Source: Candidatus Omnitrophota bacterium
GTDB taxonomy: Bacteria > Omnitrophota > Gorgyraeia > B26-G9
Direction of reading: 5' to 3'
DNA: 34,642 nt
NCBI GenBank assembly: GCA_023819605.1
Contig: JAMWCB010000005.1
Coordinates: 1-34,642, forward strand
Position numbers: made by a program. Positions 9,001-30,000 of the stretch are shown piece after piece. The number at the start of each line of letters is the position of its first letter. The first letter of the stretch is position 1.

Positions 9001-12000
9001 TTTGCCGCGGGAATGCAGGCCGGTATGTGGCTGGTGCATGCGTGCGTATTTTCTTTTTGTATCCGTTTAGAAGGAGCGCAGCGGCAGTGGGCGCTGGTCT
9101 GTTTGTTGACGGCGGCCGGCTTATTGAGCGTGCGCGCGATCAGGGAATGGGCGTTGGTCATGCCGGCGCTGCAAAAAAACGCGAGCGCATTTTTAGAACA
9201 CCAGGGTTATTATTACGCGGTGGAAGTGCTCCGTCAGCGGCGCGCCACGGCCGGTTTTTCTTCGCCGACTTTGTTGGCCGCGTATCAGTTGTTGTTGCTG
9301 CCGGTTTTTTGCGCCGGATTATGGACTTTCCGGCGGCAGCCGCGGCAAATGCTGTTGTGGGCGGGATTGGCGCTGTGCGCGGGCGCGGCGCTGCTCTGCA
9401 CGCAAACAGTGAGCGCGCTGCTCTGCGCGGCGGCCGGTATTGCCTGGTTTTTTTTCCGGTACGGCCGGCGGCGATGGGGTACGGCGGCGCGGTGGATGCT
9501 CGGCGGGATGATGATTTGTTGTATCAGCGCGCTGTTGTTCGTCGCGGCGGCGCGGCAGCGGACATTTTTTGACCCGGCGAATGCCCAGAATTCGGTGTCG
9601 AACCGTCTGAGTTATTGGAAGAGCAGCATCGCGTTGTGGCGGGAACGCCCGTGGAGGGGATGGGGGGCGGGAACTTTCGGCATCGTCTATCCGCGCTACC
9701 GGAACGAGGGAGCCACGGAGACGGTGCACGCGCACAATACGTTGTTGCAAATCGGGGTCGAAAACGGTTGGATCGGAGTCGGTTTTTTTGCGGCTGCGCT
9801 GTTTTTCGCGCTGCGCGGGCGCGGCGCCGGCGGTGATTATCTGCGGGCCGGCCTGCGTGCCGGCAGCGTATTGTTTGCGCTCCAGTCCCTGGTTGATTTT
9901 AATTTTTTTGTGCCGCAAGTTTCCGGCGTGTGGTGGATGACGACTGCGCTGGCGGCTGCGGAACCGCCGGCGGCTGCCGGCCAGGCGAGAAGTTCGCGCC
10001 GGCGTTGGTTCGCGGCAGCTTTAATTGCGGCGATCGCCGCGCTTTCCTTGTATTTCGCGTTTATTCACGCACAGCTGCAGCGCGGCCGGTCATTTTACCG
10101 GCAGGGCAATTACGCGGCGGCACGGAAATGTTTTGAGTCCGCGCGCGCGGCGGCGCCGGAGTTTGATTATCCCTATTACGCGTTGGCGTTGGTCGAACGC
10201 GCGCAATCCGCGGATTTTTCATCGGCGGTGCTCTGGTCGCTGCGTCAGGCGAGCGCACGCAATCCGTACTACGCATTTTACTATTACCGCGCCGCGCAGT
10301 ATTGCGCGGAACATCGTCAATGGATCCCTGCCTTTGGTTATATCGAACAGGCGCGAAAATTATATCCGCGGAATCAGGCGTTTGCGGCCCTGGCCGAACA
10401 AATTCATTTGTCCGCTGCTGATCAAGATTTTTTCAGTATTCTCCGCTGATCTTTTTTGAGCGCGTACCTTTCGGGGAAACCGTCCGTTTTTTTCCGGGAG
10501 TCTCGTTATCTCATACCAGCCATTGTGTAATTTTACTATTTTTTATTCTATATATAGTGTTATTAAATTTTTTTAAAAAAAGATAGAGTTAGTGTTGACA
10601 TTATCGAACCAATGCGTTATATTTGAAATGTAAGTGGGGATTTGTGGAGGGAAGTGGGGAATGTTTTACGGTGAGTACGCGCACGCGCTGGACGCAAAGA
10701 GCCGTTTGATCATTCCGGCGAAATTCCGTGAATTCGTAAAAAACGCTCAGGGGCAAGAGAAATTTTTTTTGACGCGCGGATTAGACGGCTGTTTATTCCT
10801 CTTTTCGGAAGAAGAGTGGCGGAAGCAGGAATCGAAATTTCGCGACCTCTCGTTTACCAGTCCGGAAGCGCGTAAATTCAATCGTTTGTTTTTTTCCGGC
10901 GCTTCCGAGGTCGAATGCGACGCGCAGGGACGAATTTTGATTCCCCAATATTTGAAGCAATTCGCGCAGATCGAGCGGGATGTGATGTTGGTGGGCGTTT
11001 CCAGCCGTGTGGAAATTTGGAGCAAGGGAAAATGGCGGGAATTTTATGAAAATACTCGAGGAAGTTTCGAAGATACTGCCGCACGAATCATGGTGCCGTG
11101 ATGAAGAGGCTGTAATGGAGCGCCATACGCCGGTAATGCTCGCGGAAGTTTTGACGGTATTGCGTTTGTCTCCGGGGAAGTTTATTGTCGATTGTACGGT
11201 CGGCGAAGGCGGGCATACGGCGGGGATTTTGAGCCGGATCGTTCCCGGCGGATATTTGCTGGGGTTGGATCAGGATGACGACGCGTTGGAGGCGGCTCAG
11301 CAAAAATTAGCGTGTTATGACGGATCGTTTCGTCTGGTGAATATGAATTTTAAAAATATCCGCGCGGCGCTGCAGGCCGACGGCAAAGACTGCGCGGATG
11401 GTTTTGTTTTTGATTTAGGCGTTTCGATGATGCAATTGTCCAGTCCGGAACGGGGATTCAGTTTCCGGTTGGAAGGCCCGTTGAACATGCGCATGGACAA
11501 GCGCGGGCAGATAACCGCGTTTGATTTGGTCAACAATCTTTCCGAGGATGAAATCGCGACGGTGCTCTACCGGTTTGGTCAGGAATACAATAGCCGGCGC
11601 ATTGCCGCGCGGATCGTCGGTTCGCGGCAACGCAGTCCGATCGGCACGACTTCGCAATTGGCGGAGATCGTCTACGGGGCAGTGCCGGAGCACGAACGCC
11701 ATAAAAAAATTCATCCGGCGACAAAAACATTTATGGCGTTGCGGATTGCCGTAAATCGCGAGTTGGAAGCGGTGCAGATCGGCGTACGGGAAGCGGTGGA
11801 TGCGCTTAAACCGGGCGGCAGGATTTGCGTGATATCGTTCCATTCTCTGGAAGATCGCATTGTCAAACAAGAATTCCGGGCATTGGCGAAGAAAGGCGTT
11901 GTGGAGCTTGTTACTAAAAAGCCGTTAGTGCCGAATGAACAGGAAATGCGGGAAAATCCGCGCAGCCGCAGCGCCAAGATGCGCGTAGCGCAGAAAAAAT

Positions 12001-27000: not shown

Positions 27001-30000
27001 GTTCCGTGCGGGGGTGAGGATATCACGCAGGCGCTGATGCAGGAATTTTCCATCGATCACAGCCAGGCGGAGGAATTGAAGATACGCTATCAGGCCGTAC
27101 CGGCCCGTGCGGCGGCGGAGGATGAAAAAATCATCATCAAAAAGAATACCGGGCAGTACCAAAGTATTTCTCTGGAACAGGTCAATCGCACGGCCGACCG
27201 CGCGCTGCAGGCGGTGACGGAAGCGCTGCGGCGGGAATTGACGCTTTCCGGCATCCTTGCGCGGATCCCCGGCGGAGTCGTTCTTGCCGGGGGGATGTGT
27301 TTTATGGATGGAATCAGTGACCGTATGGAGGCGGCGCTGGGAGTGCCGGTGCGCCTGGGAATGCTGCGGGGGGTCATCGGAAATAATTCCCGTTTGTACA
27401 GCATGTTGTACGCGGCCGGCATCGGAACCGTGCGCTATGCCTTGGATGCGCGCCGCCGTCCGGCGGAAGCCGTTCCGTTGCGTAAAGGATTTTTCGGACA
27501 GGTTCTCTCCCAGATGCGGTATGTTTATGACCAGTATTTTTAAGCGCAGGCGCTTATGACGCAGGCGGCGTCGATTCTCGTTATTGATCCGGACAGTGCG
27601 GTGCGCGCGGAATTCCCGCGCTTATTTGCGCAAGAAAGTTACGAAATTTTCACTGTCGCCACGTGGGGGGAGGCAGAACCGCTGCTGAAACGGCAGGCGT
27701 TTCAGATAATCATCGCCGCGATCTGCCTGCCGGATATTTCCTGCCGGGTCATGGTTCAACGGATCCGGGAAGAGAACCGTTCCGCTTTCGTGATCACCGC
27801 CGCCGATTTTTCCGGTATCGAGCAGGCAATGGAATCGCTGCATTTCGGCGCGCAGGATTATATAAGCAAGCCTTTCGATCCGCGGGATACGCTCGTCGCC
27901 ATGCGGAAGTTTGTGGAAAAACAGCGCGCGATGGTTGAAACGCTGCAGCTGTTGGATACGATTAAAGCCTTTGCCTATGCCCTGGAAGCGCGCGATCCGT
28001 ATACGCATGGACACTCGCAGGAAGTGGCGGACTACGCGACGGCGCTGGCGAATTTTTTGGGGTTTTCCCGGCGGGATATCGAGAATGTCCGCGACGCGGC
28101 CATTTTACACGATGTCGGGAAAATAGGCATTCCGGACGCGGTGCTTTTAAAGCCCGCGCCGTTAACCGACGATGAAATGTGTTTGATCAAGCAGCATCCG
28201 CAGATTGGGAAAAAAATTTTGGCGCCGGTTTCCATGCTCGCGGAAAAAATTCCCCTGATTTATCATCATCACGAGCGTTTTGACGGACGGGGATATCCGG
28301 TCGGTTTGCGCGGCGATGATATTCCGCCGGGGGCGCGGCTGATCGCGGTGGCGGATACCTTTCAGGCGATGACTTCCAGCCGGCCGTACCGGGCGGCTCT
28401 GACGAAGGAGGCGGCGTTGGCGGAATTGGCGCGGTGCCGGGGTACGCAATTTGCGCCGGAACTTGTCGATTCTTTTTTGAAAATGGTCGGATGAACGAAC
28501 GAGGAGCGGGGGATATGGATGAGAAAAATACGGCAATTGATCTGGTGCAGTTATTGAAGGTAATGGTTAGCCGCGAAGCCTCCGATGCCCATTTGAAGGT
28601 CGCGCGTCCGCCGATTTTGCGCATAAAAAAAGACCTGGTGGCCACGGAGTATCCGGCGCTGGAAAATAAAGATATCGAAAAAATCGCGTATTTTATGATG
28701 CGGGAGCGCCATCGGCGCGAATTCGAGCAGAAAAATGAAGTCGATTTTTCATATCAGATGCCGGATGTCGGGCGGTTTCGCGTCAACGTATTCCGGCAGC
28801 GCGGCGATATCGGTATCGTGATGCGCATTGTGAAAAACCGCATCCCGACGTTTGAAGAATTGATGCTGCCGGAAACGTTGCGGAAAATTGCGCTCTTTGA
28901 ACGCGGAATCGTTTTGGTGACCGGCGCCAGTTCGATGGGCAAGTCGACGACGGTGGCGGCGATGCTCGATTATGTAAACCGGAACCGGCGTTGTCACATT
29001 ATGACGATTGAAGACCCGATAGAGTATATTCACGAAGACCGCGCGGCGATTATCAATCAGCGGGAGGTCGGACTGGATACCGATTCGTTCCGCCAGGCAT
29101 TGCGCTACGTTATCCGCCAGGATCCGGACGTGATTCTGATCGGGGAAATGCGCGATGCGGAAACCTTTCAGACCGCTTTGGCCGCTTCGGAGACCGGGCA
29201 TCTGGTGTTCAGCACGCTGCACGCCTCGGACACAGGCCAGGTTGTCGACCGGATTATGGATTTTTTTCCGATCGAACAGCACGCGATGGTGCGCATGCAG
29301 CTTTCGTTTAACCTTCGCGCCGTTACCTGTCAACGTCTGATGCCGCGCGCCGACGGCAGCGGCGTGGTGCCGGCCGTGGAAATCATGCTGATCAATCCCA
29401 CGGTGATGAAATTAATCCGCGAAAATAAACCGGAACGGTTATTGAGCACCTTGCAGAGTTTTTCGCAGGAAGGGATGCTGACGTTTAATCAATCGCTGGT
29501 CAATCTCGTCCAGTCGAAATTGATTACCCTGGAAACCGCCCGGGCAAATTCTTCCCATCCGGAGGCATTACAGATGAACTTGAAAGGTATTTTCCTTGAT
29601 GAAGACCGCCGGATACTTGGCGAATGACACCGCCGCCGCATATGTCCGGAAAGAAATCAATCTCGTCCGTGTAAAAAAAAATGCGCGCTGCACCGCCGCT
29701 TTGGTTTTCCCGAACCGTTACTGCGTGGGGATGAGCAATCTCGGCATGCATACACTCTATGAGCTGCTGAACCGCCGGCCGGAGATTCGCTGCGAGCGTT
29801 TTTTTTTCGAGCCGCGCAAAAAAGAATTGCTGGGTCTGGAGAGCGGCCGCCCGCTGGCCGCGTTTGACATTGTGGCGTTTTCCGTCGCCTACGAGCCGGA
29901 TTATCTCAATGTCGCGGCGATTTTGGCGCACGCGGGATTGCGGGCTGCTTGGCGGCGGCGGACAACCATGCCGCTGATTCTCAGCGGCGGCGCGGTGACC

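What a model noticed while it worked through the whole genome (the two positions that open the first line are those of the whole stretch)
10661..29627. No FtsZ: the dcw cluster ends at a divergent ftsA across Omnitrophota
The dcw cluster runs intact from mraZ through murC, murB, ddl, ftsQ and ftsA mid-contig, then goes on to a REC-HD-GYP gene and pilT; ftsZ is found nowhere in this genome or in the phylum sample. Omnitrophota likely divide with an FtsZ-free divisome built on a repurposed FtsA plus FtsQLB/FtsWI (perhaps with MreB), mostly without class A PBPs. This would be a third FtsZ-less PVC phylum and, unlike Chlamydiae and Planctomycetes, one that keeps FtsA, contrary to papers that list the phylum as FtsZ-bearing.
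Evidence so far: PF00091 Tubulin: 0 of 19 in the order, 0 of 201 in the phylum, controls 13 of 14. TIGR00065 ftsZ: 0 of 401 over cut-off; 2 weak hits are stand-alone tubulin-like ORFs outside dcw. In 20 of 20 fetched ftsA loci (chosen from FtsA-family hits across families) ftsQ-ftsA is followed by unrelated genes, in 5 by yggS and/or proC, the usual ftsZ neighbours. FtsA is only 19-28% identical between members, matches solved FtsA at E 4e-38 and keeps its C-terminal amphipathic tail. SepF, ZapA and MinC/E are absent from the tables; class A PBP in 5 of 121; MltG 0 of 5. mreBCD, rodA, PBP2, ftsK, divIC are present.
(Added by a program. Inside this text positions count along the whole contig: contig position 1 is position 1 of the stretch shown here. 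"Call 12" and the like, gene names such as g00115 and contig names such as C1 are that model's own, and its searches are not shown. The text may have been shortened before it was handed on; [...] marks where a part breaks off. The agent that wrote the report below was given it as the finding of a first reader that could run no searches.)

Follow-up and report, generated by a model that had tools for sequence, protein, structure and literature searches.

The report
FtsZ-less divisome keeping FtsA and FtsN-like
Omnitrophota genomes keep a full cell-wall division gene cluster ending in ftsA but show no ftsZ, and their FtsA has lost the residues that grip FtsZ while a new FtsN-like membrane protein is kept, so these tiny walled bacteria likely switch on septum synthesis without a Z ring.

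Summary
The window's dcw cluster runs mraZ to ftsA, then a REC-HD-GYP gene and pilT, with no ftsZ. In the same 401 phylum genomes FtsA is found in 372 and a tubulin domain in 2, both stand-alone TubZ-like genes.

The loss itself is not new. Pende 2021 lists Omnitrophica as FtsZ-less with FtsA, and this scan found it repeatedly on other genomes. The 'FtsZ-bearing' genome OLB16 is now placed in another phylum.

New here:
(1) FtsA lost the FtsZ-binding arginine (R300 in 6 of 101, against 38 of 38 FtsAs beside ftsZ). SAR11 FtsAs, also ATP-loop-eroded and not beside ftsZ, keep it (21 of 21) and their genomes have ftsZ. So that loss, not gene order or ATP-loop decay, tracks FtsZ loss.
(2) FtsA stays under purifying selection and keeps domain 1C and a near-fixed YF end.
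(3) A single-copy FtsN-like protein with a Q-x-E/D-L-F cytoplasmic motif occurs in 189 of 201 genomes.

Likely mechanism: FtsA acts as an FtsN-linked activator of FtsQLB-FtsWI, with FtsK or MreB placing the septum. FtsA as the ring organiser is less likely, because 16 members lack filament subdomain 2B. Binding is untested.

The parts
10634..10658 (+). three GTGG[G/A] repeats at 10-bp period just before mraZ; likely MraZ operator (identification recalled, not tested)
   Evidence: read directly from the sequence printed
10661..11101 (+). mraZ (ATG at 10661)
   Evidence: PF02381 E 2e-39
11007..12002 (+). mraW/rsmH
   Evidence: PF01795 E 2e-102; ORF as listed, true start probably later
12019..12381 (+). 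likely ftsL: 120 aa, N-terminal hydrophobic segment then coiled-coil-like stretch
   Evidence: no Pfam or NCBIfam hit; position between mraW and ftsI; Atlas look-alikes include clusters with FtsL on 13% of members and an FtsL_2 structure row at TM 0.62 (lead only)
12625..14364 (+). ftsI (PBP3, class B)
   Evidence: PF00905 + PF03717
14397..19833 (+). murE, murF, mraY, murD
   Evidence: Mur ligase and MraY families
19830..20924 (+). ftsW
   Evidence: TIGR02614 398 bits over cut-off 337.5
20921..25419 (+). murG, murC, murB, ddl
   Evidence: Pfam
25397..26284 (+). ftsQ with basic cytoplasmic tail, one TM, POTRA and beta domains
   Evidence: PF03799, PF08478; TM scan
26281..27543 (+). ftsA orthologue, 420 aa: 1C and 2B present, no Arg at E. 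coli 300, phosphate-2 loop reads ECGAAH, ends DQYF
   Evidence: TIGR01174 245.5 over cut-off 175.85; model pLDDT 92, best Foldseek hits FtsA TM 0.80-0.84; alignment
27544..27555 (.). 12-bp gap where ftsZ normally lies
   Evidence: ORF list; 38 control loci from other phyla have ftsZ right after ftsA
27556..28494 (+). REC + HD-GYP-type gene; follows ftsA only in this family among the loci sampled, not part of the division module
   Evidence: 3 of 96 first neighbours, all family f1
28434..29627 (+). pilT
   Evidence: TIGR01420 440 over cut-off 319

Best explanation
Omnitrophota genomes lack ftsZ but keep the late divisome genes, and their FtsA, which has lost its FtsZ-gripping residues, likely works as a membrane-bound adaptor that binds the cytoplasmic tail of an FtsN-like protein and would switch on FtsQLB-FtsWI septal synthesis, while the division site is likely set by FtsK and/or MreB as in Chlamydia.

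Shown: absence of ftsZ in the genomes searched; loss of R300/E303 and, in some families, of all of subdomain 2B; retention of 1C, the C-terminal helix and purifying selection; presence of FtsQ, FtsB, FtsW, FtsI, FtsK, MreBC, PBP2, RodA and a single-copy bitopic SPOR protein with a conserved tail motif.

Inferred: one loss of ftsZ in the phylum's ancestor (about 0.9); FtsA binding the tail; FtsWI activation; who places the septum.
For: FtsZ loss. Tubulin domain 2 of 401 against FtsA 372 of the same 401. No FtsZ_C in 5 genomes, three of them single contigs. Unfiltered profile search of this genome negative.

Independent trace in FtsA. R300 in 6 of 101 and E303 in 17 of 101, against 38 of 38 for both in FtsAs lying beside ftsZ and 21 of 21 in SAR11 FtsAs, whose genomes have ftsZ elsewhere in 5 of 5. 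Subdomain 2B is cut to 21 residues or fewer in 16 complete members. One such member folds at pLDDT 94 as FtsA without 2B. Deleting 2B abolishes FtsZ binding, and 1C recruits FtsQ and FtsN (PMC4281207, passage).

FtsA still works. dN/dS 0.04-0.17 in the 6 of 13 pairs that were not saturated, one of them 2B-less. 1C length is nearly constant, about 82-85 aa in the rows shown. K/R at lateral-interface position 153 in 91 of 101. YF end in 96 of 101.

Partner. FtsN-like tail+TM in 189 of 201 genomes, single copy in all but one. Strict motif in 31 of 39 aligned rows and 27 of 30 database homologues, against 3 of 2260 background ORFs. It is kept in 2B-less families. E. coli FtsN has QRDY at the same place and binds the 1A-1C cleft (PMC7613929). 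The essential role of FtsA double filaments in E. coli is FtsWI activation rather than guiding (PMC11323482). FtsK-first, MreB-late division exists in Chlamydia (PMC11975371).
Against: No interaction, localisation or division mode was observed; all genomes are bins or assemblies. The FtsN-like protein scores far below the FtsN model (16.9 against 107.65), and its motif also resembles a recalled beta-clamp-binding motif (QL[SD]LF). FtsK, MreB and RodZ are ordinary genes in FtsZ-bearing bacteria, so their presence does not show a division role; RodZ was not found in this genome. The tail+TM family was not found in 12 of 201 genomes, including all three sampled of family f61, whose FtsA is present. 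A single origin of the 2B deletion is not rejected by the AU test (p 0.25). The window's own C-terminal helix is only moderately amphipathic (0.39; shuffled median 0.27, 95th percentile 0.55).
Confidence: 0.45

Rival explanations
1. FtsA itself replaces the Z ring: FtsA-FtsN-like double filaments sense curvature and steer FtsWI, as MreB steers RodA-PBP2; very small cells would need no long-range organiser.
For: FtsA-FtsN double filaments prefer negative Gaussian curvature like MreB (PMC7613929). 1C, K/R153, the C-terminal helix and an FtsN-like tail are kept. 84 of 101 members retain 2B. Ca. Velamenicoccus is a 0.2-0.3 um coccus (PMC10066038).
Against: The longitudinal contact uses IIA-IIB, and 2B is deleted in 16 members from 8 families in two classes. 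The phosphate-2 loop is eroded (G214 in 7 of 101, T215 in 15 of 101). In E. coli the filaments can be bypassed by ftsL* or ftsW*.
Confidence: 0.2
2. An unrecognised, phylum-specific protein (not FtsA, MreB or FtsK) organises the septum, and FtsA's fixed YF end or the Q-x-E/D-L-F tail binds it.
For: YF end in 96 of 101 despite about 21% overall identity. The tail motif differs from E. coli's R/KDY. No whole-proteome screen for phylum-specific genes was done.
Against: The first gene after ftsA varies widely in 96 loci. ORF lists of 9 dcw loci around murC show no conserved extra ORF between murE and ftsA (judged by size only). Similar ends (EFF, KEF) occur in FtsZ-bearing bacteria.
Confidence: 0.15
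3. FtsA has left division and serves another membrane machine as a PilM-like adaptor (pili or elongasome), with division run wholly by MreB and FtsK.
For: PilM is the next-best fold. A PilT-like gene is first after ftsA in 6 of 96 loci and second in this family. dcw and mre genes lie in one long same-strand cluster in several genomes.
Against: ftsA stays directly behind an ftsQ-sized ORF in most of the 100 loci. It matches FtsA far better than PilM (TIGR01174 E 9e-73 against TIGR01175 6e-10).
Confidence: 0.12
4. FtsZ is present but too divergent for the profiles, or is missed by binning.
For: Genomes are bins; the genome search uses a loose pre-filter; SAR11 show that ftsZ can leave the cluster.
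Against: The same searches detect two remote tubulin-like proteins at E 3e-13 and 8e-12, and SAR11 ftsZ in small partial genomes. Three single-contig genomes are negative. The FtsZ-binding face of FtsA has decayed only in this phylum among those compared. The two tubulin-like ORFs are stand-alone, 50-54 bits against a TIGR00065 cut-off of 295, and the one searched against the PDB hits plasmid RepX best.
Confidence: 0.05

Closest known systems
FtsZ-less state of Ca. Omnitrophica in Pende et al. 2021 (PMC8178401, Fig. 5b legend, Supplementary Data 2)
   Same: No FtsZ, no SepF, FtsA kept
   Different: Five genomes, one of them OLB16 (now Ca. Hinthialibacterota; called a misclassification in PMC10066038); no analysis of FtsA or its partners in the parts I read
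Canonical FtsZ-FtsA-FtsN-FtsQLB-FtsWI divisome (E. coli; Verrucomicrobium spinosum)
   Same: Gene order mraZ to ftsA; FtsA fold with 1C and C-terminal helix; FtsQ, FtsB, FtsW, FtsI; a bitopic SPOR protein
   Different: No FtsZ; FtsA lacks R300/E303 or all of 2B; ZapA 0 of 121, MltG 0 of 121, class A PBP 3 of 121, MinC and FtsX 0 of 5
Chlamydia trachomatis hybrid divisome (FtsK first, then PBP2, PBP3, MreB, MreC; PMC11975371)
   Same: PVC member, no FtsZ, keeps FtsK, MreB, PBP2 and PBP3
   Different: Omnitrophota keep FtsA, FtsB and an FtsN-like protein in an intact dcw cluster; division mode not known
Planctomycetota FtsZ-less division (PMC12283558, PMC12673574)
   Same: No FtsZ; FtsK kept
   Different: Planctomycetes lost ftsB and mostly ftsA, and dcw genes are dispensable in P. 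limnophila; here the cluster is complete and ftsA and ftsQ are under purifying selection
PilM-PilN (PDB 2YCH, 5EOU)
   Same: Actin fold with 1C that binds the short tail of a bitopic membrane protein
   Different: Omnitrophota protein is an FtsA orthologue by sequence, fold and position

Membership tests
FtsA (orthologue) | Passes curated FtsA model; actin fold with SHS2/1C insertion | tested here: met
   TIGR01174 245.5 over 175.85; PF02491; Foldseek best hits FtsA, TM 0.80-0.84
FtsA (orthologue) | Position after ftsQ in the dcw cluster | tested here: met
FtsA (orthologue) | C-terminal amphipathic membrane-targeting helix | tested here: met
   Predicted helix 404-419; phylum median hydrophobic moment 0.53 against shuffled 0.27; window 0.39, moderate; membrane binding itself not tested
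FtsA as FtsZ anchor | FtsZ-tail binding site on subdomain 2B (E. coli R300, E303; residue roles recalled, 2B role from PMC4281207) | tested here: not met
   R in 6 of 101, E in 17 of 101; window has neither; 2B deleted in 16
FtsA as FtsZ anchor | Intact ATP site (phosphate-2 loop DIGGGT) | tested here: inconclusive
   D14, D210, G212, G336 mostly kept; G213/G214/T215 mostly lost; SAR11 FtsAs lose the same loop yet coexist with FtsZ; activity not testable
Canonical FtsZ-based divisome | ftsZ in the genome | tested here: not met
FtsN | Short cytoplasmic tail, one TM, linker, C-terminal SPOR | tested here: met
   37 of 39 fetched SPOR loci; this genome C16:4174-4791
FtsN | Curated FtsN model TIGR02223 | tested here: not met
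   16.9 bits against cut-off 107.65; therefore called FtsN-like, not FtsN
FtsN | R/KDY FtsA-binding motif near the N-terminus | tested here: inconclusive
   Q-x-E/D-L-F at that place, commonest QKELF, against QRDY in E. coli
FtsN | Binds FtsA and activates FtsWI | not tested
Chlamydia-type hybrid divisome | No FtsZ; FtsK, MreB, PBP2, PBP3 present | tested here: met
Chlamydia-type hybrid divisome | FtsA absent | tested here: not met
   FtsA in 372 of 401
Chlamydia-type hybrid divisome | FtsK-first assembly and polar budding | not testable with these tools
   needs imaging

The most novel reading that the evidence does not exclude
Omnitrophota divide with an actin-led divisome: FtsA, freed from FtsZ, is clamped by the Q-x-E/D-L-F tail of an FtsN-like protein into curvature-sensing assemblies that both place and activate FtsWI, a Z-ring-free machine in which the divisome runs like an elongasome, using SEDS-class B PBP pairs alone (no class A PBP, MltG or FtsEX).
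Probability: 0.2. Interest if true: 0.85.

Novelty: new variant of a known kind. Interest (0 to 1): 0.58.

Why it matters
FtsA's two jobs, anchoring FtsZ and activating FtsWI with FtsN, cannot be cleanly separated in model bacteria. This phylum is a natural deletion of the first job with the second apparently kept, including natural 2B-less FtsAs. The proteins can be expressed and tested on lipid monolayers without a culture, so the question of what FtsA-FtsN does without FtsZ is directly testable. It also settles a conflict in print: the 'FtsZ-bearing Omnitrophica' claim rests on OLB16, which belongs to another phylum. It suggests a third kind of FtsZ-less division in the PVC group. The bare loss is already published in a figure legend, which caps the surprise.

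Tried and rejected
Gene order as proof of loss: rejected. 21 SAR11 loci end at ftsA without ftsZ in the 8-kb flank, yet 5 of 5 genomes tested have ftsZ.

ATP-loop decay as a result of FtsZ loss: rejected as specific, because SAR11 show it too.

The two tubulin-like ORFs as the missing FtsZ: rejected (2 of 401, stand-alone, TubZ/RepX-like).

REC-HD-GYP or pilT as a conserved replacement in the ftsZ slot: rejected (3 and 6 of 96 first neighbours).

'YF in 0 of 80 outgroup' is circular, because I removed the 10 of 90 homologues ending YF/YL/IF. The fair control is 0 of 38 FtsAs beside ftsZ, many of which end EFF.

Multiple origins of the 2B deletion: the trees show 4 separate groups but the AU test does not reject one clade (p 0.25). 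At least two origins rest only on the two classes involved and the differing junctions.

SepF absence (0 of 121 over cut-off) is uninformative, since Gracilicutes generally lack it. ZapA, MinC and FtsX absences were not compared with FtsZ-bearing PVC genomes. MinE was not searched.

A genome scan with the FtsA alignment could not run because no stretch was conserved enough; MurC was used instead. A paper search for R300E found nothing, so that residue's role is recalled.

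
Full report
OBSERVATION. The window holds a complete dcw cluster on the + strand from mraZ (10661) to ftsA (26281-27543), then a REC-HD gene 12 bp later and pilT. The genome (92.7% complete, 181 contigs) has no tubulin domain (best E 0.31) and no FtsZ_C. 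An unfiltered search of 44,006 six-frame segments with a profile of 38 FtsZ sequences gave best E 2.6, while the same profile finds two remote tubulin-like proteins at E 3e-12 and 3e-10. The four best named MurC relatives are Ca. Omnitrophota.

PHYLUM. In 401 genomes drawn evenly from the phylum (341 of high quality), PF00091 passes its cut-off in 2 (controls 13 of 14). The FtsA domain PF02491 is found in 372, 362 over cut-off. Five of the 29 misses were retested with my FtsA alignment and all five have FtsA. The two tubulin hits (G359, G397) are stand-alone ORFs with lysine-rich N-termini among metabolic genes. They score 50-54 bits against a TIGR00065 cut-off of 295, and the G359 protein hits plasmid RepX best in the PDB.

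NEIGHBOURS OF ftsA. I fetched 100 ftsA loci chosen from the PF02491 hits to cover families. None of their 3016 ORFs resembles FtsZ. The first downstream ORF (96 loci had one) is yggS-like in 17, gcvT in 7, proC in 6, PilT-like in 6 and REC-HD in 3; 25 have no Pfam family. yggS or proC lies in 36 of the 100 loci. Among 38 control loci with ftsZ, 2 show ftsZ followed shortly by yggS, so a clean excision from an ftsA-ftsZ-yggS-proC-yggT block is plausible but is inference.

CONTROL THAT LIMITS THE GENE-ORDER ARGUMENT. In the MurC scan (80 loci), 38 loci have ftsZ right after ftsA. Thirteen have a YF-ending FtsA and no ftsZ. Twenty-one complete Pelagibacteraceae FtsAs also have no adjacent ftsZ; the other loci were cut short. 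All 5 Pelagibacteraceae genomes tested carry ftsZ elsewhere. Gene order alone therefore proves nothing; the whole-genome counts and the FtsA sequence do.

FtsA. The window protein passes TIGR01174, matches solved FtsA at E 4e-38 and folds at pLDDT 92 with FtsA as best structural match, then PilM, then MreB. Across 101 phylum members median identity is 21%. The E. coli R300 column holds Arg in 6 of 101 and E303 Glu in 17 of 101. Both are kept in 38 of 38 FtsAs beside ftsZ and 21 of 21 SAR11 FtsAs. The role of these residues in binding the FtsZ tail is recalled. That subdomain 2B is needed for FtsZ binding, and 1C for FtsQ and FtsN recruitment, is stated in PMC4281207 (one passage).

Subdomain 2B is cut to 21 residues or fewer in 17 of 101, one of which (L132) is only cut by a contig end. 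A 353-aa member folds at pLDDT 94 as FtsA without 2B. These 16 fall in 4 groups on the trees and in two classes, but one origin is not rejected (p-AU 0.25). The phosphate-2 loop is eroded (G213 18, G214 7, T215 15 of 101) while D14, D210, G212 and G336 are mostly kept. SAR11 lose the same loop while keeping FtsZ, so this is not a mark of FtsZ loss. What is kept: 1C at near-constant length, K/R at position 153 in 91 of 101, a C-terminal amphipathic helix, and a YF end in 96 of 101 (0 of 38 in the ftsZ-adjacent controls, many of which end EFF; family f12 lacks it). dN/dS is 0.04-0.17 in the 6 of 13 pairs not saturated, so the gene is not decaying.

AN FtsN-LIKE PARTNER. SPOR domains occur in 118 of 121 genomes, mostly two per genome. 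One kind has a signal peptide and TPR-like repeats. The other is bitopic: a short cytoplasmic tail with Q-x-E/D-L-F, one TM ending F-x-LG-V-ERGK, a linker and SPOR (37 of 39 loci fetched, chosen by open frames of 160-253 aa). A profile of tail+TM finds it in 189 of 201 genomes, 147 of 151 of high quality. Its 30 database homologues carry SPOR, and the 5 with names are all Omnitrophota. The strict motif is in 31 of 39 aligned rows and 27 of 30 homologues (the sets overlap), against 3 of 2260 background ORFs, one of them this protein. E. coli FtsN starts with QRDY and binds the 1A-1C cleft of FtsA (PMC7613929, passages and Conclusions). The protein fails the FtsN model, so it is FtsN-like only. 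Binding to FtsA is inferred and untested; a clamp-binding role (motif recalled) is a rival. Earlier notes of this scan did not return this protein.

OTHER PARTS. In this genome plus three single-contig genomes and one two-contig genome: MreB, FtsK and FtsB/DivIC 5 of 5, RodZ_C 4 of 5 (not here), MinC and FtsX 0 of 5. Here mreB, mreC, pbp2 and rodA are found on contigs C37 and C57; mreD gave no tblastn hit. In 121 genomes: class A PBP 3, MltG 0, ZapA 0, SepF 0 over cut-off.

MECHANISM. Most likely (0.45) FtsA is a membrane-bound adaptor that, through 1C and the FtsN-like tail, activates FtsQLB-FtsWI. This is the job shown to be essential for FtsA double filaments in E. coli (PMC11323482, passages). 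Site selection would then fall to FtsK and/or MreB, as in Chlamydia (PMC11975371, passages). The bolder reading (0.2) is that FtsA-tail filaments steer FtsWI themselves; it is weakened by 2B loss, since the longitudinal contact uses IIA-IIB. Other rivals: an unknown organiser (0.15), FtsA moved to another machine (0.12), hidden FtsZ (0.05).

LITERATURE. Pende 2021 (PMC8178401; section 9 and Supplementary Data 2 rows) lists Omnitrophica as FtsZ-less. Of its 5 genomes only OLB16 has FtsZ, and 3 of the other 4 have FtsA. Rivas-Marin 2016 (PMC5147048, passages) found FtsZ only in OLB16, now Ca. Hinthialibacterota and called misclassified in PMC10066038 (passages). Henriques 2025 (PMC12283558; passages, section 13, supplement search) groups Omnitrophota with dcw-conserving phyla; its heatmap is a figure I could not see and one supplement was too large. 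PMC12673574 (passages) calls planctomycetes the only known free-living FtsZ-less bacteria. The 2026 preprint on 176 complete genomes (10.64898/2026.06.07.730766, passages) reports intact peptidoglycan synthesis and has no occurrence of 'fts' in its main text; its supplements are closed. PMC7203096, PMC8897712 and PMC13450696 (passages) added nothing decisive. My ten searches returned no paper on Omnitrophota FtsA remodelling or this FtsN-like family. The library lacks most subscription papers, and Megrian 2022 and Kizina 2022 (recalled) were not seen. Earlier notes of this scan already report the loss, the 2B deletion and the eroded ATP site on other genomes.

VERDICT. Real, a new variant of FtsZ-less division, with the headline already in print and the remodelled FtsA plus FtsN-like partner as the new part. 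Interest 0.58.

Noticed in passing
L168 (G212:C1:225000-244900), L162, L163, L164, L167: One long, mostly same-strand cluster joins division and elongation genes: ftsA-yggS-proC-yggT-yggU-phosphorylase-ileS-dksA-lspA-lgt-rluD-(aroA)-mreBCD-pbp2-rodA-radical SAM-pilT. The window's pilT and radical SAM genes are the kinds that follow rodA there; in this genome the block is split over C69, C42, C37 and C57.
   Followed up: partly
L206, L217, L221, L242, L250 and other Pelagibacteraceae loci: SAR11 FtsA has a strongly eroded ATP site (KNK in place of GGT, mostly Tyr at G337) and a shortened 2B, yet keeps R300/E303; ftsZ lies outside the 8-kb flank.
   Followed up: partly
L002 (G397:C10) 1015-2334 -, L003 (G359:C78) 1300-2514 +: Two related stand-alone tubulin-like ORFs with lysine-rich N-termini and TubZ/RepX-like scores, in two different families; likely acquired.
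   Followed up: partly
G000:C16:4811-5047 (L314:2312-2548) and most of L276-L313: The gene after the FtsN-like gene is mostly the PVC small basic protein (TIGR04137 over cut-off in this genome; similar N-termini).
   Followed up: partly
G025, G107, G177: FtsN-like tail+TM in open frames of only 127-137 aa, apparently without SPOR.
   Followed up: no
L062:2792-3133, L074:2761-3105, L097:4832-5227 and similar: A 113-133 aa ORF on the opposite strand right after ftsA in several families, no Pfam or NCBIfam hit where scanned.
   Followed up: no
L114, L117, L118, L119 (family f24): Very divergent FtsA (about 381-400 aa) followed by a 642-651 aa ORF without Pfam hit.
   Followed up: no
G155:C2:366235: An open frame of 42,913 aa, of the giant-protein kind reported for this phylum.
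   Followed up: no
window 31087-32481: Sulfatase domain split over two ORFs (profile positions 1-126 and 220-301); possibly a broken gene.
   Followed up: no
window 109-10449: Upstream block: two ORFs without family, a prepilin-like ORF, glycosyltransferases, a B12 radical SAM and an O-antigen ligase with TPR.
   Followed up: no
L179, L180, L196: Records titled Planctomycetales or Planctomycetia carry an Omnitrophota-type YF-ending FtsA and no ftsZ; the titles may be mislabels.
   Followed up: no
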